Sequence record: OR437326.1
Reading direction: 5' to 3' (one strand)
DNA: 64,000 bases
Source of the DNA: Escherichia phage iGC_PHA_EC001
A program made the position numbers and the translations under genes. The notes beneath the pieces are model-generated. The model saw only the letters and a list, made by a program, of their open reading frames with translations. It made no database searches and was not told the origin of the DNA. This document shows, piece after piece, positions 1-13,451 of this stretch. Position 1 is the first letter of the stretch. Each line of letters begins with the position of its first letter.

Positions 1-878
1 TCATAAGATGTACTAATCCTATCAGTTGGAGTGGTGGTTTTAATGTACTGCGTATTCTGGATAACAACTTCTACGGGGAAAACAATACTACCTGGTATTA
101 CGGTATTCGCATCCTCTTAGCTGCTGCCGGTACTTTGAAAACACTAGCAATTAAAGGTAATACCTTCACTGGATTGTACCGACCTATCATCGTTAATGGT
201 GTACTTGGGTTTGCGGTTGACGATAACGTATTTCAAACATGTGGCGGGACAACACCACCTTCGTCAGGCGGTGTCATTACCGCTGAAAACCCGTTGTCCA
301 TAGTTCGTCTGTCCGGGTGCAAAAGTGGCACAGCAGCAAATAACGTGTTCCAGGATTGCAATGACCCAGTATGTATATCTGTGGCAAGGGACCAAGTAGA
401 TTCGTCATACTCTTCGTCTGTAGAAGTTAATGGGAACATCTCCCGTGCTTCTGGATGCTTGTTGTCGCTACACTATGCGGACCGTTGCACGGCAAGAGAC
501 AACAAATACATTGGCTTGGCAACAGACTTCTACGGCATCTACGTTGGTGAGACATCCTTAGCTTGTGTTATTGATGGGTTCTATTGCTCGCAGGGTAGCG
601 GTCAGGCTGTGCATGTCAATGGTGGCCCCCGTCACGTAGTCCGAGATGTTGTGGCTTTCGGGACTGACACCACAAAGGCAGCAATTGTCTTCCACAACAC
701 CAACACTGCAAGGTCTATGGACAATGTGGTAATGGGGGGTTACTTGTCTTCTGGATACATCTTGTTATCCGGTACTACCGTGAACTACGTTGGTGATGAA
801 CCAAACATGACTATTGCCAAGCAAGATACGGCAACAGGCGTGAAGGTTGTCTACACGAAAGCGGCAGTGCAAAACTAA
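1..878 (+). CDS. Tail fibre/tailspike-like protein, C-terminal part (5' end lies outside window)
   Basis: Frame is open from nt 3 to the stop at 876-878 (the listed 135 start is an internal TTG); Gly/Thr/Asn-rich composition; heads the tail-fibre block. Confidence 0.4.
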   Translation, partial: IRCTNPISWSGGFNVLRILDNNFYGENNTTWYYGIRILLAAAGTLKTLAIKGNTFTGLYRPIIVNGVLGFAVDDNVFQTCGGTTPPSSGGVITAENPLSIVRLSGCKSGTAANNVFQDCNDPVCISVARDQVDSSYSSSVEVNGNISRASGCLLSLHYADRCTARDNKYIGLATDFYGIYVGETSLACVIDGFYCSQGSGQAVHVNGGPRHVVRDVVAFGTDTTKAAIVFHNTNTARSMDNVVMGGYLSSGYILLSGTTVNYVGDEPNMTIAKQDTATGVKVVYTKAAVQN

Positions 879-938: not shown

Positions 939-966
939 CACCCCGCTCCGGCGGGGTGTTTTAAAA
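939..966 (+). terminator. Rho-independent terminator
   Basis: GC hairpin CACCCCGC-tccg-GCGGGGTG followed by TTTT, just after the first CDS. Confidence 0.5.
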
Positions 967-987
967 CTACAACATGAGGACTAACCC

Positions 988-1293
988 ATGAATAAGATGT
1001 TCACACAGCCCACTGGCCCAGTGGCTAAACAGGTTAATAAACAAGCCATTGCCCGTAAGTTTGGTGTTAAGCAGAATGAAGTAGTCTACTTTGCTGTAGG
1101 TGCTGTACTAAGTGGATATAAGATTATCTATGATAAGGAGACGCAAAGGGCGTATTCCCTACCTGCTGATATTGCCCCAGGTACTACTGCCATTAGTCTT
1201 AGTGCTACTGTACTTGTGCATTCAGCGGGTTCTGTAGACCTTGGGGAATTAGCTGTATATCGTGATTTAAAAAGTAATGAGAACGCACTATGA
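988..1293 (+). CDS. Hypothetical protein; paralogous to an internal segment of the tailspike at 5617..8670
   Basis: QAIARKFGV..VYFAVGAVLSGYKIIYD..YSLP..SAGSVDLGELAV aligns with tailspike QTIARKYGL..AYATAGQSLTGIKALYD..YTLP..SGGSVDLSALAV. Confidence 0.45.
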   Translation: MNKMFTQPTGPVAKQVNKQAIARKFGVKQNEVVYFAVGAVLSGYKIIYDKETQRAYSLPADIAPGTTAISLSATVLVHSAGSVDLGELAVYRDLKSNENAL

Positions 1294-1532
1294 GAAAATT
1301 TTTAATAGGTATGTTCTGTACATATCCTGATAATAAAGTCAGTTCTACGAAAGTCTGGAACGCTGTAGGCATGTCGGTTATGACAGGCATGTTTATCTTT
1401 TTAGGAATAGAAAAAGAAATTCCTGAATGGATGGGTTGGGCTTTTGTTTTCATGATAACTCCTTCTCGCCTCATGAAAAATCTTATTGATTTACGCTGGG
1501 GCAGATCACAATCTACCAAAGAGGATGACTAA
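1290..1532 (+). CDS. Small membrane protein, holin-like (two hydrophobic segments, charged C-terminus)
   Basis: ATG overlaps upstream stop; hydrophobic stretches VGMSVMTGMFIFLGI and WMGWAFVFMI; C-terminal KEDD. Confidence 0.3.
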   Translation: MRKFLIGMFCTYPDNKVSSTKVWNAVGMSVMTGMFIFLGIEKEIPEWMGWAFVFMITPSRLMKNLIDLRWGRSQSTKEDD

Positions 1533-3019
1533 TGGACGAATATGGTTTGACAGATGCGGGATTTGTAATCCCGACTTTTGACGATGTTTTAAACAACTAC
1601 ATGACAGCAGTAAAAAACACATTTGGTGCAGATGCAGCCACTTCGGAAGATACTGTAATCGGACAACTGTTTAGAATAATTGCATACACAGATTACACAT
1701 TGTGGGAAGGTATGCAAGGTGTTTATAATACTCAAACACTAGATGGTGCAGAAGGTATTTATCTTGACGAAATCTTTTCTAAACGCGGTTTCTATCGAGC
1801 AGGGGCAGCAGCAAGTACAGGTTATGCCTATGTTAAGAGTAATAACAAAGCAGCTTGGACTTATGAGCTAGGCACGGATATTTACTTCAACTCTGATAGT
1901 GATATGAACTACTATGTTAGCACACCGACTATGTTGAATGCTAAGATTGCAGCTTATCAAATCTCTCGTGCTAATGCAACTGCTACAGGTGTTCCAAATA
2001 TTACTTTTTATGCACAAAGTGCGGTAGATGGAGGACTAAACAGTAAAACACTTGCACCTGGTTCTTCTACATTTATAACCGATCTTGAAACTTTTATCAA
2101 GGCAAATTTAACAGAAGCTGATCGTAGTCTTGTATTTTCTGATTCAGGTAACTTATCAATTGGTTTTACTTCTTTAACTAGTGATACTCCAGTGGGACTG
2201 GTAACTCCTATTAAATTTTATGCTAGTGTTCCGGTTGGAACCAAGTGGAGTGAGATTCCGGTAGTTGCAGCAGAGAAAGGATACAACCCTGTTGGCGTGG
2301 AGTCTATTACAGGGATATCTTCTACCTTTACAGGTTATCTTGACAGTGGTAACTTTTATTCATTTTCTCCTGGTCGGGATGTTGAGACAGACGCAGAATT
2401 CCGCTCTCGTTTCAATGACAACGTTGATGAAGCTAACGCAGGGACACGAGCAGCTATTGTGAAAGCTCTGCTACTTACAGATGGTGTTACTAAGGTGAAG
2501 ATTTATGATAACCCTACATTACATGATCAAGAACATGCTCCAGCTATGACTTTCCAGACTATAGTTTATGGTGGCAGTGCAGAAGAAATTGCAAATGTTA
2601 TCTATAAAACCAAACCAATCAACACTTTGACACATGGAACAACCAACATAACTGTTACAACAGAAGACGGAGGACAAGAAATTATTCGCTTCTCCCCTGG
2701 TGCTTCTGCTATGTATTCTGTAAAACTTGTTTATCAAACTGTCAACGGAACAACTTTAAGTGGAACAGAAAAACAAAACATCGTAGAAGCTTTACAAAAC
2801 CTGCAAGCTTACTTTGAATTAGGTTCTTCAGTAACGAACGATCAAATCAAAGGTGTTATTTATGCAGCACTTGCTTTTGGACGCTTGACTTCTCTTCGTG
2901 TTTATGTTAAACTTAATACTGAGGATGACAGTAAATATACAGAGAATAATATAGTTCCTGCTTATAATGTTGTCCCTTCTTTTGACCTTGATAACATTTC
3001 TTACGAGTATGGAGTGTAA
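1532..3019 (+). CDS. Baseplate J-like (gp47/gpJ family) protein
   Basis: 495 aa; start overlaps upstream stop; position and size fit a baseplate wedge protein ahead of an I-like protein and tail fibres; family assignment from memory only. Confidence 0.4.
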   Translation: MDEYGLTDAGFVIPTFDDVLNNYMTAVKNTFGADAATSEDTVIGQLFRIIAYTDYTLWEGMQGVYNTQTLDGAEGIYLDEIFSKRGFYRAGAAASTGYAYVKSNNKAAWTYELGTDIYFNSDSDMNYYVSTPTMLNAKIAAYQISRANATATGVPNITFYAQSAVDGGLNSKTLAPGSSTFITDLETFIKANLTEADRSLVFSDSGNLSIGFTSLTSDTPVGLVTPIKFYASVPVGTKWSEIPVVAAEKGYNPVGVESITGISSTFTGYLDSGNFYSFSPGRDVETDAEFRSRFNDNVDEANAGTRAAIVKALLLTDGVTKVKIYDNPTLHDQEHAPAMTFQTIVYGGSAEEIANVIYKTKPINTLTHGTTNITVTTEDGGQEIIRFSPGASAMYSVKLVYQTVNGTTLSGTEKQNIVEALQNLQAYFELGSSVTNDQIKGVIYAALAFGRLTSLRVYVKLNTEDDSKYTENNIVPAYNVVPSFDLDNISYEYGV

Positions 3020-3021
3020 AA

Positions 3022-3651
3022 ATGGCAGTGAGTGTTGACCATGTAACAACTTGGGCCAGTATCAATGAAGACGTTAAAAACCTTCTGATTGAAGATTTTA
3101 AATCTTCTCCTAACATTGTCAAGCTCCTCTACATCGTATCCAGTGAAAAGCAAAAGATAGATCAGGCAATGATCTATCTTGCTAAACACCGCTTGATCTC
3201 TACAGCTACAGGCAAATACCTAGATATTCTAGGGGAAGAAATGGGGATCGAACGTAATGGCTCTGATGATGAAGAGTATAGAACAATATTAAAAATCAGG
3301 GCTTACCGCGTAGCCTCATCGGGGACTCGTGGTGACATAATTGATATCTTCGCCCGTTTCACAGGAACAGAACGTGAAACGCTTAATACTTACGTAGGTT
3401 TGAATAAAACCTTTGATGTGTTTTTCTACAACCTGTGTCTTCAATCTGATCAAGCTTTAGAGCAGTTGCTAAGTGTTTTCCCTATTATTAGTAGCTACCG
3501 TCTTGGAGCAAAAGCAGGATCAGCTTTTGGTTTTAGTTCTTATTATGCTACCAAACCGCCTCATGGTATTGGTGGTTTAGGTTCCCTGTACATGGAATCT
3601 ACTGGGGATGAAACAGGACGCATGTGTACGCTTCTCAAGCAAATAGATTAA
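3022..3651 (+). CDS. Baseplate/tail protein I-like
   Basis: 209 aa directly after the J-like gene, in the J-I-fibre-chaperone order seen in P2-type baseplate modules. Confidence 0.35.
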   Translation: MAVSVDHVTTWASINEDVKNLLIEDFKSSPNIVKLLYIVSSEKQKIDQAMIYLAKHRLISTATGKYLDILGEEMGIERNGSDDEEYRTILKIRAYRVASSGTRGDIIDIFARFTGTERETLNTYVGLNKTFDVFFYNLCLQSDQALEQLLSVFPIISSYRLGAKAGSAFGFSSYYATKPPHGIGGLGSLYMESTGDETGRMCTLLKQID

Positions 3652-3660
3652 GGAGTTTAA

Positions 3661-4722
3661 ATGGCGAAGCCAATATATTATCCTGACTGGGCTACACAAA
3701 CTGTAACGCTCCCAGGAACTTTAAACACAAACAAAATTAGACCTAAAGAAACCATCCGCACAATTGGTATGGATTATGGTCAAATCATGACTTGCGAAGA
3801 GATGAACTGGATTCTTAATAATATCGGTTTATGGATTCGCTATTTGGTGGATGATTTTCTTCCAACTTTACCTAATACCTACTTGCCTTTAGTGGGAACT
3901 AAGATTACAATGGCAGGTGATGCTACTGGTGAGGCCACTTGGAACGGTAACAAAGAAGTTACTTTATCTATCCAAGTTCAAGATAACAGTCATAATCACT
4001 TGTCAGCAAACATTACAGATGCTACTAGTTCAACAGTAACACCAAACGTGTTGGTAAAACGTGATGCGGGTGGTGCTATTTATGGTGGTGATGTTTATGT
4101 TAACGGTACTTCCACAACAGATCCTGCAACACTGTTCTTCAAAAACTTTGCAGGACAAACAAATGGTGAGATTTCTGCCGAATACCAAAGTGGAGGTCAG
4201 CTTTATATTTATCGTAGAAATCCTAGCACAGGTAGTGTATCAGCAGGTGTTCGTTTATATGATGCAGGTTATGTTCTAATAGACAGTCCAAGATCAAACA
4301 GTGGACAAGATACTTCTAACGGAAATGCTTTAGTTCGCTTAGATTATCTGAATTCTCGTTTGACTTCTCTTCAGAACACATTGCAGACGAATATTAACAC
4401 TGTTCAAAACAACCTGAATAGTGTTAACAGCAACCTCTCTTCCCGTATAAACAATGTAGAAAGTAATCATCAAAATCAGATTACAAATAACTACAATTAT
4501 GCTAACGGAACATTTGTAAGAGATATTCGTTATACTAGCCAAGGTGTGTATTATCCACCAGGGAACGAGGTTTCTTGGACTTATATCTGTTCTTCTGGTT
4601 ATGTTCTTTCTGGTATTATTGTACAGGAAACAGGACGTAGCTCTGCGGATAACATCGGTGGGGTTTACTTCAAACGCCTCCAGCGCAACGTTAACGGAAA
4701 CTGGTACGATATTGGAGGCTAA
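3661..4722 (+). CDS. Tail fibre protein
   Basis: 353 aa; Asn/Ser/Thr-rich heptad segment LQNTLQTNINTVQNNLNSVNSNLSSRINNVE; immediately followed by a fibre assembly chaperone. Confidence 0.65.
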   Translation: MAKPIYYPDWATQTVTLPGTLNTNKIRPKETIRTIGMDYGQIMTCEEMNWILNNIGLWIRYLVDDFLPTLPNTYLPLVGTKITMAGDATGEATWNGNKEVTLSIQVQDNSHNHLSANITDATSSTVTPNVLVKRDAGGAIYGGDVYVNGTSTTDPATLFFKNFAGQTNGEISAEYQSGGQLYIYRRNPSTGSVSAGVRLYDAGYVLIDSPRSNSGQDTSNGNALVRLDYLNSRLTSLQNTLQTNINTVQNNLNSVNSNLSSRINNVESNHQNQITNNYNYANGTFVRDIRYTSQGVYYPPGNEVSWTYICSSGYVLSGIIVQETGRSSADNIGGVYFKRLQRNVNGNWYDIGG

Positions 4723-5268
4723 ATGATATTTACAAACTTTAAAAAATATATTCCTGAAGATCCTGAACTAAAAGAATTGGTAGAAGCAAAGAACATTCTT
4801 TTTCTTCGTTGCGATCAAGGTTACGATTGGTATGATTTACGTAGCACAGAATTCAATAACGATAAAATGAAAGTCGTTTTTGATGATCAAAATCGTATTG
4901 TGTTTTGGAATACTGATCCTACACTACTTTGCCCTGAAGATCTTTCTATAGCACAAGTAGACTTTAATATAGATACTTTTGAGGATATTAGGAATAAGGT
5001 TCTGGATTTAGAAACCTTAACTCTTAAGGATAAAGAGTATTCCCGTGAAGAGTTGATGACACAAGCTAGTGCAAAAATTCGCTCTTTACAAGAAACAGCG
5101 GTAGCACTTATAACACCTTTACAGTATGCTAAAGATTTAGAAATGGCTACTGAAGACGAATTAGCTTATCTTAAAAATCTTCAAGTTTATGTGGTTAAAC
5201 TAAATCGTGTTCCGCTTCAAAAAGATTATCCTTACACTATAGATTGGCCTACATTACCGACGGAATAA
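4723..5268 (+). CDS. Tail fibre assembly chaperone (Tfa-like)
   Basis: C-terminal PLQYAKDLEMATEDELAYLKNLQVYVVKLNRVP matches the conserved Tfa C-terminal motif; start overlaps the fibre gene stop. Confidence 0.7.
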   Translation: MIFTNFKKYIPEDPELKELVEAKNILFLRCDQGYDWYDLRSTEFNNDKMKVVFDDQNRIVFWNTDPTLLCPEDLSIAQVDFNIDTFEDIRNKVLDLETLTLKDKEYSREELMTQASAKIRSLQETAVALITPLQYAKDLEMATEDELAYLKNLQVYVVKLNRVPLQKDYPYTIDWPTLPTE

Positions 5269-5277
5269 GGGATCACT

Positions 5278-5613
5278 ATGGAATTTCAAGAAGCATGGGG
5301 ACTTGCAAAGGATGCAATAATCCCTTTAATCGGAGTCATCTGGTTCTTTTTCAAACAAAAAATGGATAAATTCGGCTCTGATCTTGAGGAAATGGAGGAG
5401 AAAAGTCGAGAGCTAGAGAAGAAGTTGGTCTTTGTTGAATCAACTTATGCAACTAAAGCCGAACTTACCCAGATGCTAAATCAAATTAACTCTACATTAA
5501 TGGCAAATAATAACACCCTTGAGCAAAAAATTGAAAAGATTATGGACCTCAAGAATGCGACTATCCAAATGATGCTAGATGACATAGTTAAACGTACACA
5601 GAATAAGGGGTAA
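5278..5613 (+). CDS. Hypothetical protein with N-terminal transmembrane helix and coiled-coil
   Basis: IIPLIGVIWFFF hydrophobic segment then charged heptad-like region. Confidence 0.3.
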   Translation: MEFQEAWGLAKDAIIPLIGVIWFFFKQKMDKFGSDLEEMEEKSRELEKKLVFVESTYATKAELTQMLNQINSTLMANNNTLEQKIEKIMDLKNATIQMMLDDIVKRTQNKG

Positions 5614-5616
5614 TTA

Positions 5617-8600
5617 ATGGCAACATTCCCAACATATCCAGCAACGTCTCTCGAACAGGGCGTAGATCTGGTTATTTTCTCATCTAACCAACTCCATGAT
5701 GTTATTAATGGAAGTGCTACAGAGAGTATTGAAACAGAATCAGGGTTGATACCAACCCTGAGAAAAGCCCTTGTTGACAACTTTTTCTTTAAAAGCCCAT
5801 TAGATTGGGCGCAAGGCACAAACGAAACAGTTTTTAACCAACTTCGTTATTTCCAGAATGGAGTATTGAGCGGTTATTACTATGCTCCTAACGCTACATT
5901 GGTTAACCCAATCCCTATGCAAGGGACTCCAGTAGGAGATAACAACTGGGTATTGTGGGGACTGAAAACAGAACAATTAGCAACAGAAGTCACCCCGTGG
6001 GTATACTCTGGTGCAACTGGTTATGAAACAGTAATTAGTCCTCCTTACATCTTTGATAGTGCTATTGTTACGATCAATGGTGTTATTCAGGTTCTGGGGG
6101 AAGCTTTCCGTATAGAAGACAGTAAGATCATCTTATCTGAACCTTTGGGACACGATCCTGCAACAGGACTGCCAAACAAGCTTTTTGCTTATATTGGTAA
6201 AATCGTAGCTTCAGCAGATACAGATCCTAATCTAGAGAACCGTCTTGTTAGTTTAGAAACAAAAACGGAAGAACTAACAGAAAGCATGGATAAAGTCCCT
6301 CTGCAAACTATTGCTCGTAAGTATGGTTTGTTAGATGATGAGGTGGCTTACGCAACAGCAGGTCAATCGTTAACAGGGATTAAAGCTCTGTATGATCCGG
6401 TAGCACAGTCTTCCTACACATTACCTCCTAACATCACAGGAACTTTAACATCCTTATCTGTTTCTGGAGTAATGACTTATTCTGGAGGATCTGTAGACCT
6501 TTCTGCACTGGCTGTTGAGCGTGGACAGTTTGTTCATTTGCCTACAAGCTTTGGTAATAACGTAACTCTGACAGCTAAAAATCAGACGATTGGACGTGGT
6601 GCTGGTCGTTATCGTTGGGCTGGAAGTTTACCAAAAAGTATTTTGGCCTCTGATACATTGGAGACAAGCGGAGGATTAGGTCCAAATGCATGGGTTCTGA
6701 CTAATACAGAAGGACTGTTAACCCCTCGTGGTGGAACATACAACGATCTATTCGATGTTGTCTACTTGTCAGAATTTGCTAACAATACAACTACCTATAC
6801 CACACCAGAAGCAGCTTTCCAGGCGGCACTGTTAGCAGCAAAAGCTTCGAAAAGCAAGATTCTCGATGCTTACGGTTGCGACATGACTTTCACGACAAGC
6901 TCTTTTGATATTCAAGATATCACTTTGCGTGGTGGTGTGTTCCGTGGTCAACGCGATTATCGTGTGCAGAATGCTACAATAGAAGGCACAACTTTCCGTA
7001 ACTCTCGTGTTATGTATTGGGGTGGTGCTGTGCGCATGTTCGATTGTTTGTGGGACGGTGCTCCTCGCGCAGGTCAAGTTGGTAGCTTGGTATTCCAAGG
7101 CAACCCAATATCAGGTACTTTTGAAATTGATAACTGTACTTTTAAAAACGGGTTGTATGGCATCCTTCAACAAGGAACAGGGGAACCAGTAACACGTGGT
7201 GTCTTCCGTAACCTTACCTTCATGGACATGCAAGGTGATGCAATAGAACTGAACGTCATCAATAAACATTATGACGATGGTTGTGTGATTGAGAATATTT
7301 ACCTGTCTAATATCGATGGGACTAACGCTCCTATTCCTCTGTCCAACTGGGGTATCGGTATCGGTATAGCTGGTAAAGGACCATATGGTTACGGAATCCC
7401 TGATGATCAATATTGCAAGAATATTACAATTCGTAACGTTTTTGCAAAACGTTGTCGTCAGATTGTCCACGTAGAAGTTGGTCGTAATATCTCTATCGAA
7501 AACATTCATGGCGATCCAGACCAGACCGTATCTGTTGGGACAGGTTTGGCAACTGGCGCAGTTGTAATGTATGGAAGTAAAGATTTTACGATTGACGGTG
7601 TTTACGGAGAGCCTAAAACAGACGGTAGCACACTTGCAAGTAATATCCGTATGATTTATTTGGAGTGGGGAACTAACGCAGTTCTGGACGAAGAGGGTAA
7701 TCCGGTAGTTCCGGCACAGGGTAGACCTTCAAACCCATGCTTTAACTATTCTGTTCGTAACATTCACACCAAAACTGGGCGTGTTTTTGCGGGAGTTTCC
7801 GCTGGGCCAGGTTATGAAAACAGAGTTAGCTTTGAAAATATTCGTTGCGCTGCATTGCAGTTGTTCGGTATAGCTTCTTGGCTTTCAATGTCTAACATCA
7901 CCTGTAATATCTTCGACTGTGTTGGTCAACCTGAATCTGGTCCAGGGACATTTTATGATGGATTCTTCCGTAGAGAAAAATCTGTTCTTGAAATGGTTAA
8001 CGTAAACTGTTACCCAGATGGCAAGACGATGGTTACTGGTCGTCCACAGTGGAGCCGTTGCCGTTACTCGGATATTCATCGTGTCAACTGTAATGTTGAA
8101 GCTAATATGTATACCAATATCGCAGGTGGTATTGGAGCTATTGTAGGGACAACGGGCAAAGTTTATTACTTAGAGCCTAATCCTAGTCGAAACATTGATG
8201 GAATGCATTTCCCAACAGGGAAAGAGTTTGACAAAGGTGATATGATAGTCAAGGCGGATAATACGTTCTTCCTTGTAACAACAAGTGGGGCATATATTCC
8301 AGATATCCCAGCTTTCGGTATTCGAGCTACACAGGCAGGAGATACCTTCCTGACACAGAACTTGACTCCTAACGGGACAGCAACAAATGCTTCTTGGTTG
8401 TATCATTACCCTCTGTCAGCAGGGACACGTATCCGTATTCCTGGTGCTGGCGTAGGTGGAGCAGATTTGGACACAGTTATTACTCGTGCACCTTATCAAG
8501 ATAATGATACGTGGACTAACCCAGTTAAAATAGACATTGCAGATCCAATTGTAACGCCTACAAGTGCTGGAGTTAGAATTAAAACCATACCTAATGATTC

Positions 8601-8670
8601 CAGTAATGTTTCTGTAGGTAATACTGCGGTTATTCGCCCAACGCCAGTAGTAGATGTGCCAACAACCTAA
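5617..8670 (+). CDS. Tailspike protein with right-handed beta-helix (putative polysaccharide depolymerase)
   Basis: 1017 aa; repeated N-x-T/S-[IV]-x-N rungs (NCTFKNG, ITIRNV, ISIENI, YSVRNI, VSFENI) typical of pectate-lyase-like beta-helices. Confidence 0.6.
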   Translation: MATFPTYPATSLEQGVDLVIFSSNQLHDVINGSATESIETESGLIPTLRKALVDNFFFKSPLDWAQGTNETVFNQLRYFQNGVLSGYYYAPNATLVNPIPMQGTPVGDNNWVLWGLKTEQLATEVTPWVYSGATGYETVISPPYIFDSAIVTINGVIQVLGEAFRIEDSKIILSEPLGHDPATGLPNKLFAYIGKIVASADTDPNLENRLVSLETKTEELTESMDKVPLQTIARKYGLLDDEVAYATAGQSLTGIKALYDPVAQSSYTLPPNITGTLTSLSVSGVMTYSGGSVDLSALAVERGQFVHLPTSFGNNVTLTAKNQTIGRGAGRYRWAGSLPKSILASDTLETSGGLGPNAWVLTNTEGLLTPRGGTYNDLFDVVYLSEFANNTTTYTTPEAAFQAALLAAKASKSKILDAYGCDMTFTTSSFDIQDITLRGGVFRGQRDYRVQNATIEGTTFRNSRVMYWGGAVRMFDCLWDGAPRAGQVGSLVFQGNPISGTFEIDNCTFKNGLYGILQQGTGEPVTRGVFRNLTFMDMQGDAIELNVINKHYDDGCVIENIYLSNIDGTNAPIPLSNWGIGIGIAGKGPYGYGIPDDQYCKNITIRNVFAKRCRQIVHVEVGRNISIENIHGDPDQTVSVGTGLATGAVVMYGSKDFTIDGVYGEPKTDGSTLASNIRMIYLEWGTNAVLDEEGNPVVPAQGRPSNPCFNYSVRNIHTKTGRVFAGVSAGPGYENRVSFENIRCAALQLFGIASWLSMSNITCNIFDCVGQPESGPGTFYDGFFRREKSVLEMVNVNCYPDGKTMVTGRPQWSRCRYSDIHRVNCNVEANMYTNIAGGIGAIVGTTGKVYYLEPNPSRNIDGMHFPTGKEFDKGDMIVKADNTFFLVTTSGAYIPDIPAFGIRATQAGDTFLTQNLTPNGTATNASWLYHYPLSAGTRIRIPGAGVGGADLDTVITRAPYQDNDTWTNPVKIDIADPIVTPTSAGVRIKTIPNDSSNVSVGNTAVIRPTPVVDVPTT

Positions 8671-8731: not shown

Positions 8732-10738
8732 ATGAATTTAACAAGACCTAATAGTGCGATAGCCGATCTGGTAGAAGCTACTTATCGAAAACGTCGCAGC
8801 TTTGAGGCAGGTTTTACATTACGTAATTCCCGTGAAGTGTTGCTGTTAGCAGCAGAAGGGAATTATTACCAATGGAAAGGAACTTTTCCTAAAGTAGTTC
8901 CAGCAAACTCTACGCCAGCCGCCACAGGTGGTATTTCTTCCCTTGCATGGCAAAGTGTTGGGACCGCTGATGATATAGCAATTATCAATGCCAAGTTTAC
9001 GGCAATGCAGCAACAAATTGATGATCTGTCGGAAACAATACCTGAAGCTGGTAAATCGGCTTATCAGATCGCACTTGATAATGGTTTTGTTGGAACAGAA
9101 GCACAATGGCTTGCCTCTTTGAAAGGGGATACTGGTGCTCAACTTAATATTAAAGGATCATTAGCAAGCACTAGTGAACTACCATCCACAGGTAACGTTG
9201 CAGGGGACGGTTATATCGTAGGCGATGTAATCTACGCTTGGGATGGTTCTGTTTGGAAACTTATTTCTTCTCTTGGGCCAGAAGGTAAATCAGCTTACGA
9301 GGTATGGTTGGCAGATGGTAATACAGGATCTGTTTATGATTTTCTTACCTCTATAAAAGGTGATAAAGGTGATGTTGGTCCTACAGGGCCACAGGGAGCA
9401 CCTGGTGTTAACGCCAACGGTTTTGATTATCGTGGGGATTTGCCTTCTACAAGTAACTTACCACAACCTAACTCGGAAAACGTAAGCCAAGCTTATTCTA
9501 TCAATGGTAATCTTTATGTCTCTAACGGGACAGCTTGGGTCAACATGGGTAATATTGTTGGTCCTCAAGGTCCACAAGGTGAGGCAGGTAAAGACGGTCT
9601 TGATGGAACAGATGGAGATGAAGGGAAATCTGCATATCAAAGTTGGCTGGATGCTGGTAATGAAGGGACAGAAGTAGATTTTATTGCCTCACTTAAAGGT
9701 CCAAAAGGAGACAAGGGTGATCAAGGAGAGCGAGGTCCACAAGGTGAACTAGGTCCACAAGGACCAGTGGGTGCAACAGGATCAGGCTTAGAGATTATCG
9801 GGGTTCTGAACAGTGAAGCTGAACTTCCTCCTACTGGAGAAGTAGGCGATGCATATAAAATTAATAATGATTTGTATGTTTGGGTTCAAGATGCTACGGA
9901 ATGGATGAATGTTGGCAGTCTTGGAGGAATATCAATTACAGCTAAAGGTCATGTTCCGAACAGTGAAGCTCTCCCTGTTTACAATAACTATGGTGATGCT
10001 TACTTAACTGAAGACACTAGTAATCTTTACATCTATACTTACGATCAAGACACCAATTCCGCATCTTTTGTTGACATGGGAAGTATTAAAGGTGACAAAG
10101 GTGAGAAGGGTGATCCTGGAACAAACGGAACCAACGGTACTGATGGGACCAACGGTAAGGACGGCGCACAGTGGTTTGTAGCAACAACTAATCCAGTCGC
10201 AGGAGACGGTGTTATCAATGATTACGCCTTCAATACTAACACTGGAGCAGTGTTTAAGAAAACAGATTCTTCTACGTGGACACTTATAGGAACTCTTCCT
10301 AGTATACCAGAAGCCCCTCAAGATGGCTTGACGTATGGTCGTTCTGATGGAAACTGGATCGAAATATCAGGATCAGACCCTACAGAAGCTATAACACCGA
10401 CTAGAGTTACAGCAGGTTTCATGGAACTTGAAACAACTACTGCCAACTCTGGAGCATCTTGGACTCCTTCTGGAACTTCCAATATGTATGTTGTTACAGT
10501 AACTGACGCTCTGACAGTTGGAGCATGGCCTGGTGTCACTGGCTCTACAAAACCTAAAGCGTTTTCAGCAATGATTTATTTGATTCAAGATACAACGGGA
10601 CACACGGTTACACTAGATGCGTCTTATGGAGCACTAAATGATACAGAAATAGCAACTACTGCTAACGCAGTAACAATTTTGCAATTAACGTATCCTGGTG
10701 TGGGTGATATCGTGGACATGGTTGTTGTAACACGATAG
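8732..10738 (+). CDS. Tail fibre protein with collagen-like Gly-X-Y repeats
   Basis: GDKGDVGPTGPQGAPG, GPQGPQGEAGKDGLDGTDGDEG, GPKGDKGDQGERGPQGELGPQGPVGATG, GDKGEKGDPGTNGTNGTDGTNGKDG; three copies of a GKSAY..W(L)..G..V.F(I/L)ASLKG module. Confidence 0.65.
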   Translation: MNLTRPNSAIADLVEATYRKRRSFEAGFTLRNSREVLLLAAEGNYYQWKGTFPKVVPANSTPAATGGISSLAWQSVGTADDIAIINAKFTAMQQQIDDLSETIPEAGKSAYQIALDNGFVGTEAQWLASLKGDTGAQLNIKGSLASTSELPSTGNVAGDGYIVGDVIYAWDGSVWKLISSLGPEGKSAYEVWLADGNTGSVYDFLTSIKGDKGDVGPTGPQGAPGVNANGFDYRGDLPSTSNLPQPNSENVSQAYSINGNLYVSNGTAWVNMGNIVGPQGPQGEAGKDGLDGTDGDEGKSAYQSWLDAGNEGTEVDFIASLKGPKGDKGDQGERGPQGELGPQGPVGATGSGLEIIGVLNSEAELPPTGEVGDAYKINNDLYVWVQDATEWMNVGSLGGISITAKGHVPNSEALPVYNNYGDAYLTEDTSNLYIYTYDQDTNSASFVDMGSIKGDKGEKGDPGTNGTNGTDGTNGKDGAQWFVATTNPVAGDGVINDYAFNTNTGAVFKKTDSSTWTLIGTLPSIPEAPQDGLTYGRSDGNWIEISGSDPTEAITPTRVTAGFMELETTTANSGASWTPSGTSNMYVVTVTDALTVGAWPGVTGSTKPKAFSAMIYLIQDTTGHTVTLDASYGALNDTEIATTANAVTILQLTYPGVGDIVDMVVVTR

Positions 10739-10741
10739 CAG

Positions 10742-10768
10742 AAGCCCCGAAAGGGGCTTTCTTTTTAT
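10742..10768 (+). terminator. Rho-independent terminator
   Basis: AAGCCCC-gaaa-GGGGCTT followed by TCTTTTTAT. Confidence 0.6.
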
Positions 10769-10779
10769 GGAGGGTTTAA

Positions 10780-11814
10780 ATGTTTCCAATTCCAATATTT
10801 ACTATTATGACCAGCACTGGTGTCGTTCCTCTGCCAGCAGGTATTGTTAAAAAAGTAATCACTTTAGATTACCCAGATAATGCTGGTAATTCTAACAGCA
10901 GTTTAGCAATTTTGCTTAATGATGGTAGATTGTTCACTCAAGGCGCAAACCTTTTTGGTGAGATTGCAGATGGAACTCGTAGTGCACGATTCAATAATTT
11001 CCACTTGGCTTCTACTGTAGCAGCGGATGTGTTTACCGCAGATCGTTGTTTTGTTATTAAAACTAACAGTGGGGGATGGCAATATTCAGGATTGACAGCA
11101 GGGTTGGTAGGATCTATAGCAGCAGGTGGTACGGACGCATGTGTAACTACTTGGACCAGCTTTCCATCTGTAATAACAGGGACTATCTCTTTAGCCAATC
11201 TTAAAGAGGTTAAGGGAGGATATAACAACACTCTCTGGTTAATGAATAGTGGTGTTCTTTACGGATCTGGTCAAAACACAGTAGGCAGTTTAGGTGCAAG
11301 TAATACTAACGAAGTTTCTACTCCTCGTCAGATAACAAGTGCAGCAGTTGCTTTTGATGCAGGTTACAACCAATGCTCTTATGTCAACAATGTGGGAACC
11401 TTGCGTGTTTGTGGAGCTAGTAAAGGCTTAGCAGGTAATAATAACACAACAACAGCTTTTGTCAATGCCAAGATATCCGCTACTGAAACAGTGTATGTCA
11501 AAGATTACATCAATACGGTTTCCCAGACAATAGTTGTAGGAGATACCTCCGGTGGCACGGGTACAGTAAACTACTTATATGTTAGATCTAATACAGAAAC
11601 AACCTACACTAAACTGGATACCTTTGCAGCAGGTTTCTCAACATGGAAGTTTCCACCAAGCCGCCACTCTTTTTTCGTTGGGATCAATAATTCCTTGTGG
11701 GCTATTGGTAAGAACTACACTGCAAACTTAGGTTTGGGGTATGATTCTGCGAGCGGAGATCCACTCCAAGTGGAAAACCAGTTAAACCTGAAGGAGTGGG
11801 TTCCTGGGATATAA
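10780..11814 (+). CDS. Hypothetical tail-associated protein
   Basis: 344 aa Gly/Thr/Asn-rich ORF between fibre genes; 19-nt overlap with the next gene. Confidence 0.35.
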   Translation: MFPIPIFTIMTSTGVVPLPAGIVKKVITLDYPDNAGNSNSSLAILLNDGRLFTQGANLFGEIADGTRSARFNNFHLASTVAADVFTADRCFVIKTNSGGWQYSGLTAGLVGSIAAGGTDACVTTWTSFPSVITGTISLANLKEVKGGYNNTLWLMNSGVLYGSGQNTVGSLGASNTNEVSTPRQITSAAVAFDAGYNQCSYVNNVGTLRVCGASKGLAGNNNTTTAFVNAKISATETVYVKDYINTVSQTIVVGDTSGGTGTVNYLYVRSNTETTYTKLDTFAAGFSTWKFPPSRHSFFVGINNSLWAIGKNYTANLGLGYDSASGDPLQVENQLNLKEWVPGI

Positions 11815-13451
11815 ACAAGCTCACAAGCGTTCATACGCTGAATATGGATGTTACTAACCAATTAGGTTATCAAGGAACCTTTTTCGTTTATAATGGAGAT
11901 ATGTATTATTCCGGTATTTGGAAAGATGGGAAAGCCTCGTATCTGTTCAATAGTGGTCTAAACTATAATAAATTCACACCAATAGCAAGCTCCGTGATTA
12001 CGGGTGATATTCTGGCAACTGGTTTAACTACAGATTCTTTAGGAATTTGTATTGTAGGTGGAACTAAACAGTTGACACATTCTGTTAGCCCAGAAGGAGG
12101 TAAACTTTTCAATATTAAATACACTTCTTCTGCCCCTGCAAACATGACAATATCATCTACTGGTTTAATGACTTTCCATGCAGAAGGTGGTTTTGATGCA
12201 GGTATGACAGCCTTAAACGCTGAAGGAACAACTTTATCAGATACCTCTGGAGGATATGCTTCAACATTGAGTGTTTACACCCCTAGCTTATCTGCGATGG
12301 ATGTAGGAACAACACAAACAATGGTAGCAGAAATAACGCCAACAGGAGCAGCAAGCTTACCTGGTATGGTTGTTGAGTATACAACTACAGATCCTAATGT
12401 TGCTACAGTAGATCCTACAACTGGTGTAATAACTGGTGTTGGTGATGGTGGTTGTAGAATTGGTTGCACAGCTACGTATCAAGGTGTTGTTACCGCTTCT
12501 GATAGTTCTTATTTAACGGTGAACGCTGTTGCGGGAAAGGAGTTAGCTCCATCTCCGAGTAGTAGTTTAACGGTTCTAAACGGATATTTCAACCACTCGG
12601 CAGATGGGGCAATCACGTTCCCAATTTTATCGGGTACTGTCACACCAGCTAACTTTGTAGTTAAGGTGGATGACGTTGTAATACCTTCAAATAAAGTAAT
12701 ATTTAGAAATAAAGCTTTCTCTACAGTGGATAGTTATCCAGCAGGAGAATATAGACTGGCTATTGAATTTGCAAGTGCTTCGGTAGTGAATAGTGTTGAT
12801 GTGTCTATGGAAGCAAATCCAGATCTTTTAGAATTATGGGGCGGCAACAGAATTGGTTATTCTACAAGCCCAGCCTCACAATTCTTAAAAGGTTGTGCTA
12901 ACTTAAGACGAATAACTTCTGATTGTTTTAGTAACACATCTTACACCGGAACATCTATAAGTGGTATCTTCTCTGGCTGTACAAGTTTGACAGCTATCCC
13001 TGAAGGATTATTCAGTGATGCTTTATTTCCTTCAATGACAACAATGTCAAGCACGTTTGAAGGTTGTACATCTTTAACATCTATTCCTTCAGATTTATTT
13101 AAGAATCTATCAAAAGTTACAAGATATTCTTACACCTTTAAAGATTGCACCTCTCTTGCAGAAGTTCCAGCAGGAATGTTTGATAATATTCCAACGAAAG
13201 TGACCTCCTTAACAGCTACATTCCAAGGTTGTTTAGCACTTACAGATTTTAATAAAATCTTTAATGACAATCCAGGGTTAACTGTTTGTGGTAAACGTGG
13301 AGCATTATCTTCTTTCTTTAGTGGATGCACAAATCTTACAGGAACAGGAACAACATTAACAAATACATTAGGCGGAGTAGCTAATAGTTACCTATTCAGG
13401 TATTGCACAAAACTTTCTGATTATAATAATATTCCTTCGGGTTATAAATAA
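11796..13451 (+). CDS. Tail fibre/adhesin-like protein with Big_2 Ig-like domain and BspA-type leucine-rich repeats
   Basis: GTG start 7 nt after AAGGAG; Big_2-like TTDPNVATVDPTTGVITGVGDGGCRIGCTA; repeated C-T-S-L-T-x-I-P-x-x-L-F units (CTSLTAIPEGLF, CTSLTSIPSDLF, CTSLAEVPAGMF). Confidence 0.5.
   Translation: MGSWDINKLTSVHTLNMDVTNQLGYQGTFFVYNGDMYYSGIWKDGKASYLFNSGLNYNKFTPIASSVITGDILATGLTTDSLGICIVGGTKQLTHSVSPEGGKLFNIKYTSSAPANMTISSTGLMTFHAEGGFDAGMTALNAEGTTLSDTSGGYASTLSVYTPSLSAMDVGTTQTMVAEITPTGAASLPGMVVEYTTTDPNVATVDPTTGVITGVGDGGCRIGCTATYQGVVTASDSSYLTVNAVAGKELAPSPSSSLTVLNGYFNHSADGAITFPILSGTVTPANFVVKVDDVVIPSNKVIFRNKAFSTVDSYPAGEYRLAIEFASASVVNSVDVSMEANPDLLELWGGNRIGYSTSPASQFLKGCANLRRITSDCFSNTSYTGTSISGIFSGCTSLTAIPEGLFSDALFPSMTTMSSTFEGCTSLTSIPSDLFKNLSKVTRYSYTFKDCTSLAEVPAGMFDNIPTKVTSLTATFQGCLALTDFNKIFNDNPGLTVCGKRGALSSFFSGCTNLTGTGTTLTNTLGGVANSYLFRYCTKLSDYNNIPSGYK

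What the first reader, a model, noticed from the sequence alone, without database searches (positions are those of the whole stretch)
988..1293. Free-standing 101-aa ORF homologous to an internal segment of the large tailspike
About 70 residues of this small protein align along their length with a segment roughly 215-300 residues into the 1017-aa tailspike (shared ..IARK(F/Y)G.., ..Y(S/T)LP.., ..GSVDL..LAV..). It may be a remnant of fibre-module exchange or a separately expressed adaptor that competes with or assists tailspike attachment.
Basis: seen in the sequence. Interest (0 to 1): 0.35.

Follow-up and report, generated by a model that had tools for sequence, protein, structure and literature searches.

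The report
Orphan tailspike head-domain stub gene
This 101-codon gene is the leftover first domain of a foreign tailspike gene, sitting at the spot where these E. coli phages swap host-recognition spikes; it looks like a decaying recombination scar, not a working adaptor.

Summary
ORF 988-1293 (101 aa) aligns with residues 226-302 of the 1017-aa colanidase tailspike (45% identity, E=1e-17). That paralogy is secondary, though. The ORF is 65-80% identical over residues 1-93 to the N-terminal D1/TD1 "head" domain of CBA120 TSP1/TSP3 and G7C gp63.1-type tailspikes. It keeps their start codon and ribosome-binding site, and the homology stops at the D1/D2 boundary.

The window is a phi92/phAPEC8-like myophage (Stephanstirmvirinae). 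The stub lies between a hypervariable tailspike slot and the conserved membrane-protein/baseplate genes. Only about a third of relatives carry it. Others show nested 5' erosions, in-frame deletions, a frameshift, or no stub at all (phi92, ESCO13).

In several relatives its 5' part is replaced by the 5' end of a different gene carried in with a new spike: a T7-type holin, a G7C gp69-like gene, or another spike type. Its shared 3' 40 codons show 10 nonsynonymous versus 1 synonymous variant. The neighbouring membrane gene shows 17 versus 40.

My verdict is a recombination-junction relic, a truncated secondary receptor-binding protein of the kind already described in Klebsiella podophages. A docking or decoy role for the protein is not excluded but is unsupported. 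Interest is low to moderate.

The parts
1..878 (+). 3' end (292 codons, open to the window edge) of the variable upstream beta-helix tailspike. This is the exchangeable cassette whose right-hand junction is the stub.
   Evidence: Open frame; weak NosD/beta-helix Pfam hit. Megablast similarity to relatives starts only at 940-1308. No homologue in the phage genome collection or the protein collection.
939..962 (+). GC-rich hairpin (CACCCCGC-TCCG-GCGGGGTG) plus TTTT. It is a terminator-like element that travels with the stub's 5' region.
   Evidence: Fold -25.9 kcal/mol, z=-5.2. The same hairpin, ribosome-binding site and start arrangement occurs in front of gp63.1-like genes of N4-like phages (L037, L017) and after spike genes in relatives.
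976..980 (+). Shine-Dalgarno GAGGA, 7 nt upstream of the ATG.
   Evidence: Read from the sequence. The stretch TTAAAACTACAACATGAGG..TAACCC is nearly identical in front of the tail-fibre gene of Klebsiella N4-like phage phi1_146050.
988..1293 (+). Stub ORF, 101 aa. Codons 1-14 are the N-terminal peptide, codons ~15-93 are a complete D1/TD1 head domain, and codons 94-101 (LKSNENAL) are a non-homologous tail.
   Evidence: E=1e-34 to 4qnl/4oj5, residues 1-93; PHROG tailspike families, profile positions 1-92; about 130 of the 150 best cluster representatives are long spikes matched at residues 1-95.
1180..1200 (+). GTTAISL motif (residues 65-71). This is the conserved distal-TD1 motif proposed as a recombination site in Ackermannviridae spikes.
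   Evidence: Read from the sequence. The motif GTTAVSL is described in PMC8432352. The ECGD1/W22/L009 breakpoints fall immediately 5' of it.
1036..1231 (+). Zone of left-hand breakpoints seen in relatives, at about 1036, 1100-1112, 1155, 1170 and 1229.
   Evidence: Megablast/blastn match starts and the nucleotide alignment of 17 loci.
1265..1267 (+). End of homology to tailspike genes (codon 92/93). This corresponds to the D1/D2 boundary of TSP1.
   Evidence: Ackermannviridae and Gamaleyavirus blastn matches end at query position 88-95 of window:1171-1532. Protein alignments end at residue 92-93.
1290..1532 (+). 80-aa membrane-protein gene whose ATG overlaps the stub's stop (ATGA). It is the first gene of the conserved baseplate block (BpJ-like 1532-3019 and onward).
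   Evidence: phrog_1322. Its N-terminus is remodelled in stub-bearing phages compared with stub-less ones.
6292..6522 (+). Internal D1 domain (residues 226-302) of the 1017-aa colanidase tailspike.
   Evidence: residues 226-366 match D1-D2 of 4qnl/5w6f/5w6h/4oj5. PF18668 (D2) at residues 302-361.

Best explanation
The ORF is an orphan 5' stub of a TSP1/gp63.1-class tailspike gene. It carries that gene's own ribosome-binding site, start codon, N-terminal peptide and complete D1 (TD1) head domain, and nothing else. It sits at the right-hand junction of a hypervariable tailspike cassette slot in phi92/phAPEC8-like myophages.

Inferred mechanism: a new spike module is captured from a co-infecting phage that carries spike genes in tandem (Ackermannviridae, G7C/N4-like podophages, or other multi-spike myophages). 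The intergenic hairpin and the first codons of the donor's next gene come along, and the right-hand crossover falls in or just after that fragment. Once a D1 fragment is resident, it acts as a homology patch for further exchanges. This explains its mosaic 5' alleles and the nested erosions.

The protein itself is most likely dispensable and drifting. The ORF persists because it is short, is renewed by homologous exchange with intact D1 sequences, and is read into the start of the downstream membrane/baseplate genes (ATGA overlap).

Shown here: homology, domain limits, distribution, breakpoints, the foreign 5' fragments and the substitution pattern. Inferred: the co-transfer mechanism, the homology-arm role, and the lack of protein function.
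For: (1) Identity. 3.8e-34 and 9.7e-34 to G7C gp63.1 (4qnl) and CBA120 TSP1 (4oj5) over residues 1-93. In a scan of 1.84 billion representatives, nearly all hits are 500-900-aa spikes matched at their residues 1-95. Homology ends at codon 92/93.

(2) Imported regulatory region. The hairpin, ribosome-binding site and 5' codons are 76-92% identical at the nucleotide level to the junction in front of gp63.1-like genes of N4-like phages. The Ro121c4YLVW-type allele is 100% identical in protein and 91% in nucleotides to CBA120 orf210 over 58 codons, plus 33 nt upstream.

(3) Sporadic presence. About 45 of roughly 128 Stephanstirmvirinae-like records keep at least the stub's 3' end (an estimate). 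The stub is absent from phi92, ESCO13/phAPEC8-type phages and more distant relatives.

(4) Decay series. In-frame deletion of codons 10-61 (ECGD1, W22). Loss of the start plus a 1-nt insertion (L009). Break at codon ~56 (ESCO9). Only 18 codons left (AV125).

(5) Three other kinds of donor-derived 5' gene fragments at the same junction. The 5' half of a T7/K1F holin 17.5 is fused in frame in SKA64. A G7C gp69-like 5' part is present in Ec-G1 and P0029. In AV125, 45 codons of another spike type are 90.6% identical in nucleotides to L034.

(6) At least four different 5' alleles are joined to the same 3' 40 codons.

(7) The 3' 40 codons carry 10 nonsynonymous versus 1 synonymous variant (pN/pS 3.5). 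The membrane gene has 17 versus 40 (0.10) and BpJ has 11 versus 107 (0.03). Fisher p=2e-4 and 1e-8.

(8) No full-length D1-headed spike was found at this slot in any of the loci I examined.

(9) Published precedent: truncated second receptor-binding proteins of 61-69 aa in KP32/KP34-like phages, interpreted as non-functional remnants or docking sites for new acquisitions (PMC6872550).
Against: The ORF is intact, with a good ribosome-binding site, in many genomes of two genera. It contains a complete domain ending exactly at a domain boundary. Several independent rearrangements keep the reading frame (ECGD1/W22, SKA64, P0004, P0026, P0028, P0029). The TSP1-like allele differs from CBA120 by 15 synonymous and 0 nonsynonymous changes, which would also fit selection on the protein, although that divergence may have occurred in functional donor genes. 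The substitution test rests on only 11 variable sites. It includes copies from truncated versions, and some changes could be conversion tracts. No expression or virion data were available.
Confidence: 0.75

Rival explanations
1. The stub is a functional free-standing D1 head. It trimerises and docks onto a T4 gp10-like (XD) site of one of the phage's own fibres, for example the acidic 120-225 region of the colanidase. There it would act as a cap, plug or assembly factor for a docking site that has no spike.
For: In CBA120 the TSP1 head (D1-D2) binds TSP4 XD3 with a Kd of about 0.06-0.08 uM (PMC8825819). The stub keeps the whole D1 plus the N-terminal peptide. The colanidase has a TSP4-like layout: a phiTE-gp241-like baseplate anchor at residues 11-124, an uncharacterised 120-225 region with net charge -10, then D1-D2. 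There is a weak similarity of residues 126-178 to the XD3 region of a TSP4-like protein (domain E=3.6, not significant). The ORF is intact in about 30-40 genomes.
Against: About two thirds of relatives with the same colanidase or baseplate lack the stub or carry wrecked versions. The 3' half of D1 accumulates nonsynonymous changes and indels. In CBA120 even the D1-D2-neck fragment needed Zn2+ to trimerise, and the stub lacks D2 and the neck. No XD domain could be demonstrated: phmmer against PDB found none, and the AF2 model of colanidase 1-310 had pLDDT below 50 from residue 118.
Confidence: 0.12
2. The stub is an inter-phage weapon. It would be a soluble decoy D1 head, nearly identical to that of Kuttervirus TSP1 or G7C gp63.1. 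During co-infection it would occupy the XD3/gp66 docking sites of competitors and poison assembly of their branched spike complexes.
For: The alleles are 100% (58 aa) or 70-80% identical to the heads of phages that share the same hosts and evidently recombine with this lineage, so co-infection does occur. There are 15 synonymous and 0 nonsynonymous differences from CBA120 TSP1 in the 5' part. The several alleles could track different competitors.
Against: There is no direct evidence. The same decay, dispensability and relaxed 3' selection apply as above. Mosaic alleles are explained more simply by homologous exchange. A monomeric D1 without D2 and the neck is unlikely to compete with a trimeric head.
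Confidence: 0.04
3. The stub is what remains, in place, of a once full-length D1-headed second spike encoded at this position. That is retrograde evolution by internal deletion, not import as a fragment.
For: This matches the interpretation of KpV767 and KP-Rio/2015 in PMC6872550. The stub ends exactly at the D1/D2 module boundary. Split or truncated D1 ORFs occur in other phages (P0025 in U1G, L032/L033).
Against: No relative examined has a full-length D1-headed spike here. The other fragments at the same junction (holin 17.5, gp69-like, the MLNYTT-type spike 5' end) can only be imports. Stub-less relatives have the upstream gene abutting the membrane gene.
Confidence: 0.15
4. The stub arose by duplication of the internal D1 segment of this phage's own 1017-aa colanidase tailspike.
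For: 45% identity over 78 aa, E=1e-17.
Against: The stub is 65-80% identical to foreign spike N-termini. It also shares with them 14-20 N-terminal residues, the ribosome-binding site and the hairpin, none of which the colanidase has. Justusliebigvirus phages with a D1-less 804-aa colanidase still carry the stub.
Confidence: 0.01

Closest known systems
D1 (TD1) head domain of Ackermannviridae TSP1/TSP3 and of G7C gp63.1 / phage B2 gp48 tailspikes (PDB 4oj5, 5w6f/6nw9, 4qnl, 9d84)
   Same: 65-80% sequence identity over residues 1-93. Same start, same N-terminal peptide and the same GTTA(I/V)SL motif. In those phages the domain is the docking head that attaches the spike to a gp10-like XD domain of a scaffold spike or adaptor (TSP4 XD3, gp66, B2 gp49).
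   Different: Here the domain stands alone. It has no D2, no neck and no catalytic beta-helix; an 8-residue unrelated tail follows and then a stop. The host phage belongs to a different family (Stephanstirmvirinae), and no partner XD domain has been demonstrated in it.
Truncated second receptor-binding proteins of Klebsiella podophages: KP32virus group C (KpV767, 69 aa) and KP34virus group C (KP-Rio/2015, 61 aa), Latka et al. 2019 (PMC6872550)
   Same: A short ORF in a receptor-binding-protein slot that keeps only the N-terminal docking element of a secondary spike. It has a sporadic distribution and has been interpreted as a non-functional remnant and a possible landing pad for new spikes.
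   Different: Those stubs keep a 29-aa docking peptide, and relatives carry the full-length gene at the same locus. Here the retained module is a whole ~80-aa folded domain, no full-length version is seen at the locus, and the stub seems to have been imported as a fragment.
Internal D1-D2 head of CBA120 TSP4 / TSP2 and of this window's colanidase (residues 226-361)
   Different: These are paralogues at about 45% identity, embedded in a full spike behind a baseplate-anchor region. They are not the source of the stub.

Membership tests
TSP1/TSP3/gp63.1-type tailspike (D1-D2-neck-beta-helix) | N-terminal D1/TD1 domain homologous over its full length | tested here: met
   phmmer against PDB gives E=3.8e-34 (4qnl), 9.7e-34 (4oj5) and 2.7e-31 (5w6f), residues 1-93 against 1-95. 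PHROG tailspike families match at profile positions 1-92.
TSP1/TSP3/gp63.1-type tailspike (D1-D2-neck-beta-helix) | D2 domain (Pfam PF18668 Tail_spike_N), helical neck and catalytic beta-helix body following D1 | tested here: not met
   The ORF stops 8 codons after D1, with no Pfam hit. The downstream gene is an 80-aa membrane protein in another frame, with stop codons before its ATG. This is therefore not a tailspike.
TSP1/TSP3/gp63.1-type tailspike (D1-D2-neck-beta-helix) | Conserved distal TD1 motif GTTAVSL | tested here: met
   GTTAISL at residues 65-71 (read from the sequence). The motif is described in PMC8432352.
TSP1/TSP3/gp63.1-type tailspike (D1-D2-neck-beta-helix) | Trimeric head that binds a T4 gp10-like XD domain of a partner protein | not testable with these tools
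   No multimer prediction or binding assay was available. The literature shows the TSP1 head binds TSP4 XD3 and needs Zn2+ to trimerise.
Truncated secondary RBP stub (Latka et al. 2019 groups C) | Short ORF in an RBP slot that keeps only the docking N-terminus of a secondary spike | tested here: met
   101 aa, D1 only, immediately after a tailspike gene.
Truncated secondary RBP stub (Latka et al. 2019 groups C) | A partner primary RBP with a T4 gp10-like branching domain is present in the same phage | tested here: inconclusive
   No XD domain was found by phmmer against PDB in colanidase residues 1-225 or in three upstream fibre proteins of a relative. There is a weak, non-significant match to the TSP4-like XD3 region. 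The AF2 model was unusable beyond residue 118.
Truncated secondary RBP stub (Latka et al. 2019 groups C) | Close relatives carry the full-length spike at the same locus | tested here: not met
   None of the 17 Stephanstirmvirinae loci aligned, nor phi92 (L028) or L029, has one. All stub-cluster proteins are 49-116 aa.
Gene under purifying selection for its protein product | Excess of synonymous over nonsynonymous variation, and universal presence in the clade | tested here: not met
   10 nonsynonymous versus 1 synonymous variant in the 3' 40 codons, against 17 versus 40 and 11 versus 107 in neighbouring genes. The stub is present in about a third of relatives.

The most novel reading that the evidence does not exclude
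The free D1 head is a deliberately retained soluble mimic of other phages' spike-docking heads. It would either cap an empty docking site on this phage's own colanidase, or sabotage assembly of the branched spike complexes of co-infecting Kuttervirus or G7C-like phages that share its hosts. In the second case its mosaic alleles would track those competitors.
Probability: 0.05. Interest if true: 0.75.

Novelty: new member of a known kind. Interest (0 to 1): 0.25.

Why it matters
As a protein it probably does not matter. As a sequence feature it is informative in three ways.

- It marks the right-hand crossover zone of a tailspike cassette slot in a therapeutically relevant group of broad-host-range E. 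coli phages.
- The fragments that accumulate there (a D1 head, a T7-type holin, a G7C gp69-like gene, another spike's 5' end) act as a fossil record of the donors. They show that spike modules move between myophages, Ackermannviridae, N4-like and T7-like podophages.
- For annotation, it warns that the labels 'tail protein', 'tailspike' and 'tail spike protein 3' on these ~100-aa ORFs should not be counted as extra receptor-binding proteins when predicting host range. For engineering, it points to a natural insertion site and homology arm for swapping spikes.

Tried and rejected
- **AlphaFold2 model of colanidase residues 1-310** (9-sequence alignment), made to look for a gp10-like docking domain. 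Mean pLDDT was 51.5 and below 50 from residue 118, including the known D1. The model was unusable, so I ran no fold search.
- **phmmer of G7C-like gp66, a Klebsiella gp66-like protein and a TSP4-like protein** against all ORFs of the window and upstream regions of relatives. Only D1/D2 matches were significant, with no XD match.
- **PDB sequence searches** of three upstream fibre proteins of a relative. There were no hits for two of them and N4 gp64/gp65-type hits for the third, with no docking domain.
- **Word-indexed protein search.** It returned almost only short proteins. The exhaustive representative search was needed to see the full-length spikes.
- **Fusion of the stub to the downstream membrane protein by -1 frameshifting** at T_TTA_AAA (1264-1270). 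Rejected, because the -1 frame hits TAA immediately and has TAA/TGA before the ATG.
- **Selection for translational coupling** as the reason rearranged versions stay in frame. About 6 are in frame and 4 out of frame, with ascertainment bias, so this is not significant and I make no claim.
- **Rfam scan of 700-1700.** Only sub-threshold terminator-like hits.
- **Sigma-70 promoter scan.** Nothing between the hairpin and the ATG.
- **Within-allele dN/dS for the 5' 60 codons.** Too few differences to be informative.
- **Search for a near-identical donor of the TSP1-like allele.** The best non-Stephanstirmvirinae match is CBA120 at about 89%, so the donor is unsequenced or the transfer is not recent.
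- **Testing co-transfer for this very window** by finding the upstream spike's receptor-binding domain in a donor. There was no homologue at all.
- **Literature search for virion proteomics of stub-bearing phages.** Nothing found. The phi92 cryo-EM paper does not cover it, and phi92 lacks the stub.

Full report
**What is there.** The window is from a phi92/phAPEC8-like E. coli myophage (Stephanstirmvirinae). Positions 1036-6000 are 96-98% identical to many Phapecoctavirus genomes. ORF 988-1293 (+) encodes 101 aa. GAGGA lies 7 nt before its ATG. A strong GC hairpin plus TTTT lies just upstream at 939-962. Its TGA overlaps the ATG of an 80-aa membrane-protein gene, which is followed by the conserved baseplate genes: Baseplate_J-like, DUF2612/wedge, short fibre and chaperone. 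Upstream, the window opens inside a beta-helix tailspike gene (1-878).

**Checking the observation.** BLASTP of the small protein against the 1017-aa tailspike (5617-8670, annotated 'colanic acid-degrading' in relatives) gives 45% identity over 78 residues, 15-92 against 226-302, E=1e-17.

**What the domain is.** The small protein matches solved structures much more strongly than it matches the colanidase:
- G7C gp63.1 (4qnl), E=3.8e-34
- CBA120 TSP1 (4oj5), E=9.7e-34
- CBA120 TSP3 (5w6f/6nw9), E=2.7e-31
- phage B2 gp48 (9d84)

In each case residues 1-93 of the query align to residues 1-95 of the spike. In CBA120 nomenclature this is D1 (TD1), the first of the two 'head' domains. The TSP1 head binds the XD3 domain of TSP4 with a Kd of about 0.06-0.08 uM (PMC8825819). 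TD1 is defined as residues 1-96 in TSP1/TSP3, 157-257 in TSP2 and 344-421 in TSP4 (PMC8432352).

The colanidase residues 226-366 are an internal D1-D2 head, as in TSP4. They sit behind an N-terminal domain homologous to the baseplate-attached phiTE fibre (9cuy; PF26208 Phage_phiTE_241_N).

An exhaustive scan of 1.84 billion representatives found 214 relatives. Nearly all of the best 150 are 500-900-aa spikes matched at their extreme N-terminus. tblastn finds the domain in 484 phage genomes, mostly Kuttervirus, Gamaleyavirus and Klebsiella phages. Homology to these genes stops at codon 92/93 (window ~1265), the D1/D2 boundary. The last eight codons (LKSNENAL) are unrelated.

**It carries the donor gene's start region.** The window's hairpin, ribosome-binding site and first 20 codons closely match the junction in front of gp63.1-like genes in N4-like phages. 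The match is 91.6% over 95 nt to Klebsiella phage phi1_146050, and 75.9% over 261 nt to metagenomic contig L037, including the hairpin. A second allele, found in Ro121c4YLVW, PD06, tuntematon and Ec-G1, is identical in protein to CBA120 TSP1 over 58 residues (91% nucleotide identity, 15 synonymous differences). It also shares 33 nt upstream of the ATG. KKP 3954, anhysbys and contig L029 carry further hybrid or divergent 5' alleles. All of them are joined to the same 3' 40 codons. The stub therefore did not arise from the colanidase.

**Distribution and decay.** In an alignment of the region upstream of the membrane gene from 17 loci (translations), the stub shows these states:
- Full length: window, PaulScherrer, anhysbys, KKP 3954, Ro121c4YLVW, tuntematon, Ec-G1, PD06.
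- Codons 10-61 deleted in frame, leaving 49 aa: ECGD1, W22.
- Cut at codon ~62 with no start and a 1-nt insertion: L009.
- Cut at codon ~56: ESCO9.
- Reduced to its last 18 codons: AV125.
- Absent: ESCO13 and IMG/VR locus L007. It is likewise absent from six more distant IMG/VR relatives L010-L016, which were not in that alignment (tblastn and translations).

phi92 itself has only a 48-nt spacer between endosialidase gp143 and membrane protein gp144. From evenly spaced rows of a blastn search, I estimate that about 45 of ~128 Stephanstirmvirinae-like records keep at least the 3' end of the stub. The public protein collection adds further in-frame deletions, frameshifts and fusions (P0004, P0019, P0026-P0029).

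**The junction collects 5' ends of donors' downstream genes.**
- In SKA64 the first ~50 codons are the 5' half of a T7/K1F-type holin (gene 17.5), fused in frame at stub codon ~39.
- In Ec-G1 and in P0029 the 5' part comes from the small gene that follows gp63.1 in G7C-like phages (EC1-UPM gp69).
- In AV125 a 45-codon ORF is the 5' end of a different spike type. It is 90.6% identical in nucleotides to the first spike of a tandem array in metagenomic contig L034, whose last spike is D1-headed and 81% identical to the window's stub.

These fragments have no plausible function where they lie. They show that each replacement of the upstream spike drags in the start of whatever followed it in the donor, with the right-hand crossover falling in or near the stub. 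The D1 stub is most simply the same kind of object. Being homologous to many circulating spike genes, it then serves as a recombination patch. Several breakpoints lie next to the GTTAISL motif, which was proposed as a recombination site in Ackermannviridae. The membrane gene's first codons also differ between stub-bearing (MRKFLIG...) and stub-less (MPKESGFKKFIRG...) phages, so the junction extends into that gene.

**Selection.** In the 3' 40 codons shared by all copies, 10 variable states are nonsynonymous and 1 is synonymous (pN/pS about 3.5), and L029 adds one more nonsynonymous change. In the same genomes the membrane gene shows 17 versus 40 (0.10). The BpJ gene shows 11 versus 107 (0.03) in the Phapecoctavirus-backbone set. 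Fisher tests give p=2e-4 and 1e-8. This fits neutral drift of the protein, not constraint. The sample is small, and the 5' part offers no power within alleles. The 15:0 synonymous pattern against CBA120 can be explained by divergence among functional donor genes before transfer.

**Could the protein still work?** A free D1 could in principle dock on a gp10-like domain. The colanidase has a TSP4-like layout and an acidic 120-225 region (net charge -10). I could not demonstrate an XD domain. The stub lacks D2 and the neck, and even D1-D2-neck needed Zn2+ to trimerise in vitro. Most relatives do without the stub. I found no proteomic data. I rate a role in the phage's own virion at about 0.12 and an anti-competitor decoy role at about 0.04.

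**Comparison with known cases.** The closest described phenomenon is the truncated second receptor-binding protein of KP32/KP34-like Klebsiella phages (69 and 61 aa). [quoted passage not shown] The present case is the same kind of thing in a different phage family. It retains a different module (a whole D1 domain), no full-length version is seen at the locus, and there is direct sequence evidence for the recombination process. Databases label these ORFs 'tail protein', 'tailspike' or 'tail spike protein 3'. That over-states what they are.

**Verdict.** The feature is real but ordinary: a new member of a known kind. Interest is about 0.25.

Noticed in passing
window 1-878: The C-terminal 292 residues of the upstream beta-helix tailspike have no detectable relative. 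tblastn against 50,697 phage genomes found nothing, and the word-indexed search of 5.8 billion proteins found nothing. This looks like an orphan receptor-binding domain.
   Followed up: partly
L019 (Escherichia phage SKA64) 2838-3182: A 114-aa chimeric ORF. The 5' half of a T7/K1F-type holin (gene 17.5) is fused in frame to stub codon ~39. The record annotates it as 'hypothetical protein CKV1F_gp37'.
   Followed up: yes
L021 (phage AV125) 2872-3009; L034 1450-1587: A 45-aa ORF that is the 5' end of a 'MLNYTT...' type tailspike gene. It is 90.6% identical in nucleotides to the first spike of a three-spike tandem array in a metagenomic myophage contig. The last 18 codons of the D1 stub follow it.
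   Followed up: yes
L024 (phage vB_Ec-G1) 3501-3944; L023 (EC1-UPM) 6001-6330: Ec-G1 carries, just upstream of its intact stub, the 5' part of the small membrane-protein gene that lies between gp63.1 and the holin in G7C-like phages. After that part the ORF continues out of frame. P0029 is an in-frame fusion of the same gene to the stub's 3' end.
   Followed up: yes
L032 4001-5789 and L033 3172-4960 (metagenome contigs): A 113-aa D1 ORF overlaps a 497-aa D2-plus-body ORF, so the tailspike is split at the D1/D2 boundary. Two independent assemblies show it. It could be a real frameshift, a pseudogene or a recoding site.
   Followed up: no
window 1290-1320, compared with L022 2965-3010 and L028 4570-4620: The membrane protein starts MRKFLIG in stub-bearing phages. 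In stub-less ESCO13 it starts MPKESGFKKFIRG and in phi92 MVKEKNGFKKFIRG. The 5' end of this conserved gene was remodelled together with the junction.
   Followed up: partly
L002 (phage KKP 3954) 9677-12732: The colanidase gene is annotated as two ORFs (107 aa and 905 aa). This indicates a frameshift or stop in that genome or its assembly.
   Followed up: no
L018 (phage anhysbys) 4611-6761: The 717-aa protein two genes upstream of the stub is homologous to phage N4 gp64 and the gp65 non-contractile sheath (9lc0; E=7e-30 and 2e-12). This fits reports that Justusliebigvirus phages and N4 both use the NGR glycan.
   Followed up: no
hit tables: Records named Campylobacter, Acinetobacter, Pseudomonas and Klebsiella phage (for example A110a/A145, ABPW7, ZCKP1) match this locus at 82-98% nucleotide identity, like E. 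coli Stephanstirmvirinae genomes. The host labels may reflect contamination or misassignment.
   Followed up: no
window 5974-6291 (colanidase residues 120-225): This region lies between the phiTE-like baseplate anchor and D1. It has net charge -10 and only a weak, non-significant similarity to the XD3 region of a TSP4-like protein. It is a candidate docking platform that I could not confirm.
   Followed up: partly
window 1264-1270: T_TTA_AAA, a heptamer of slippery-site form, lies in the stub's frame. A -1 shift runs straight into TAA. Relative L009 has a 1-nt insertion in this same A/T run.
   Followed up: yes
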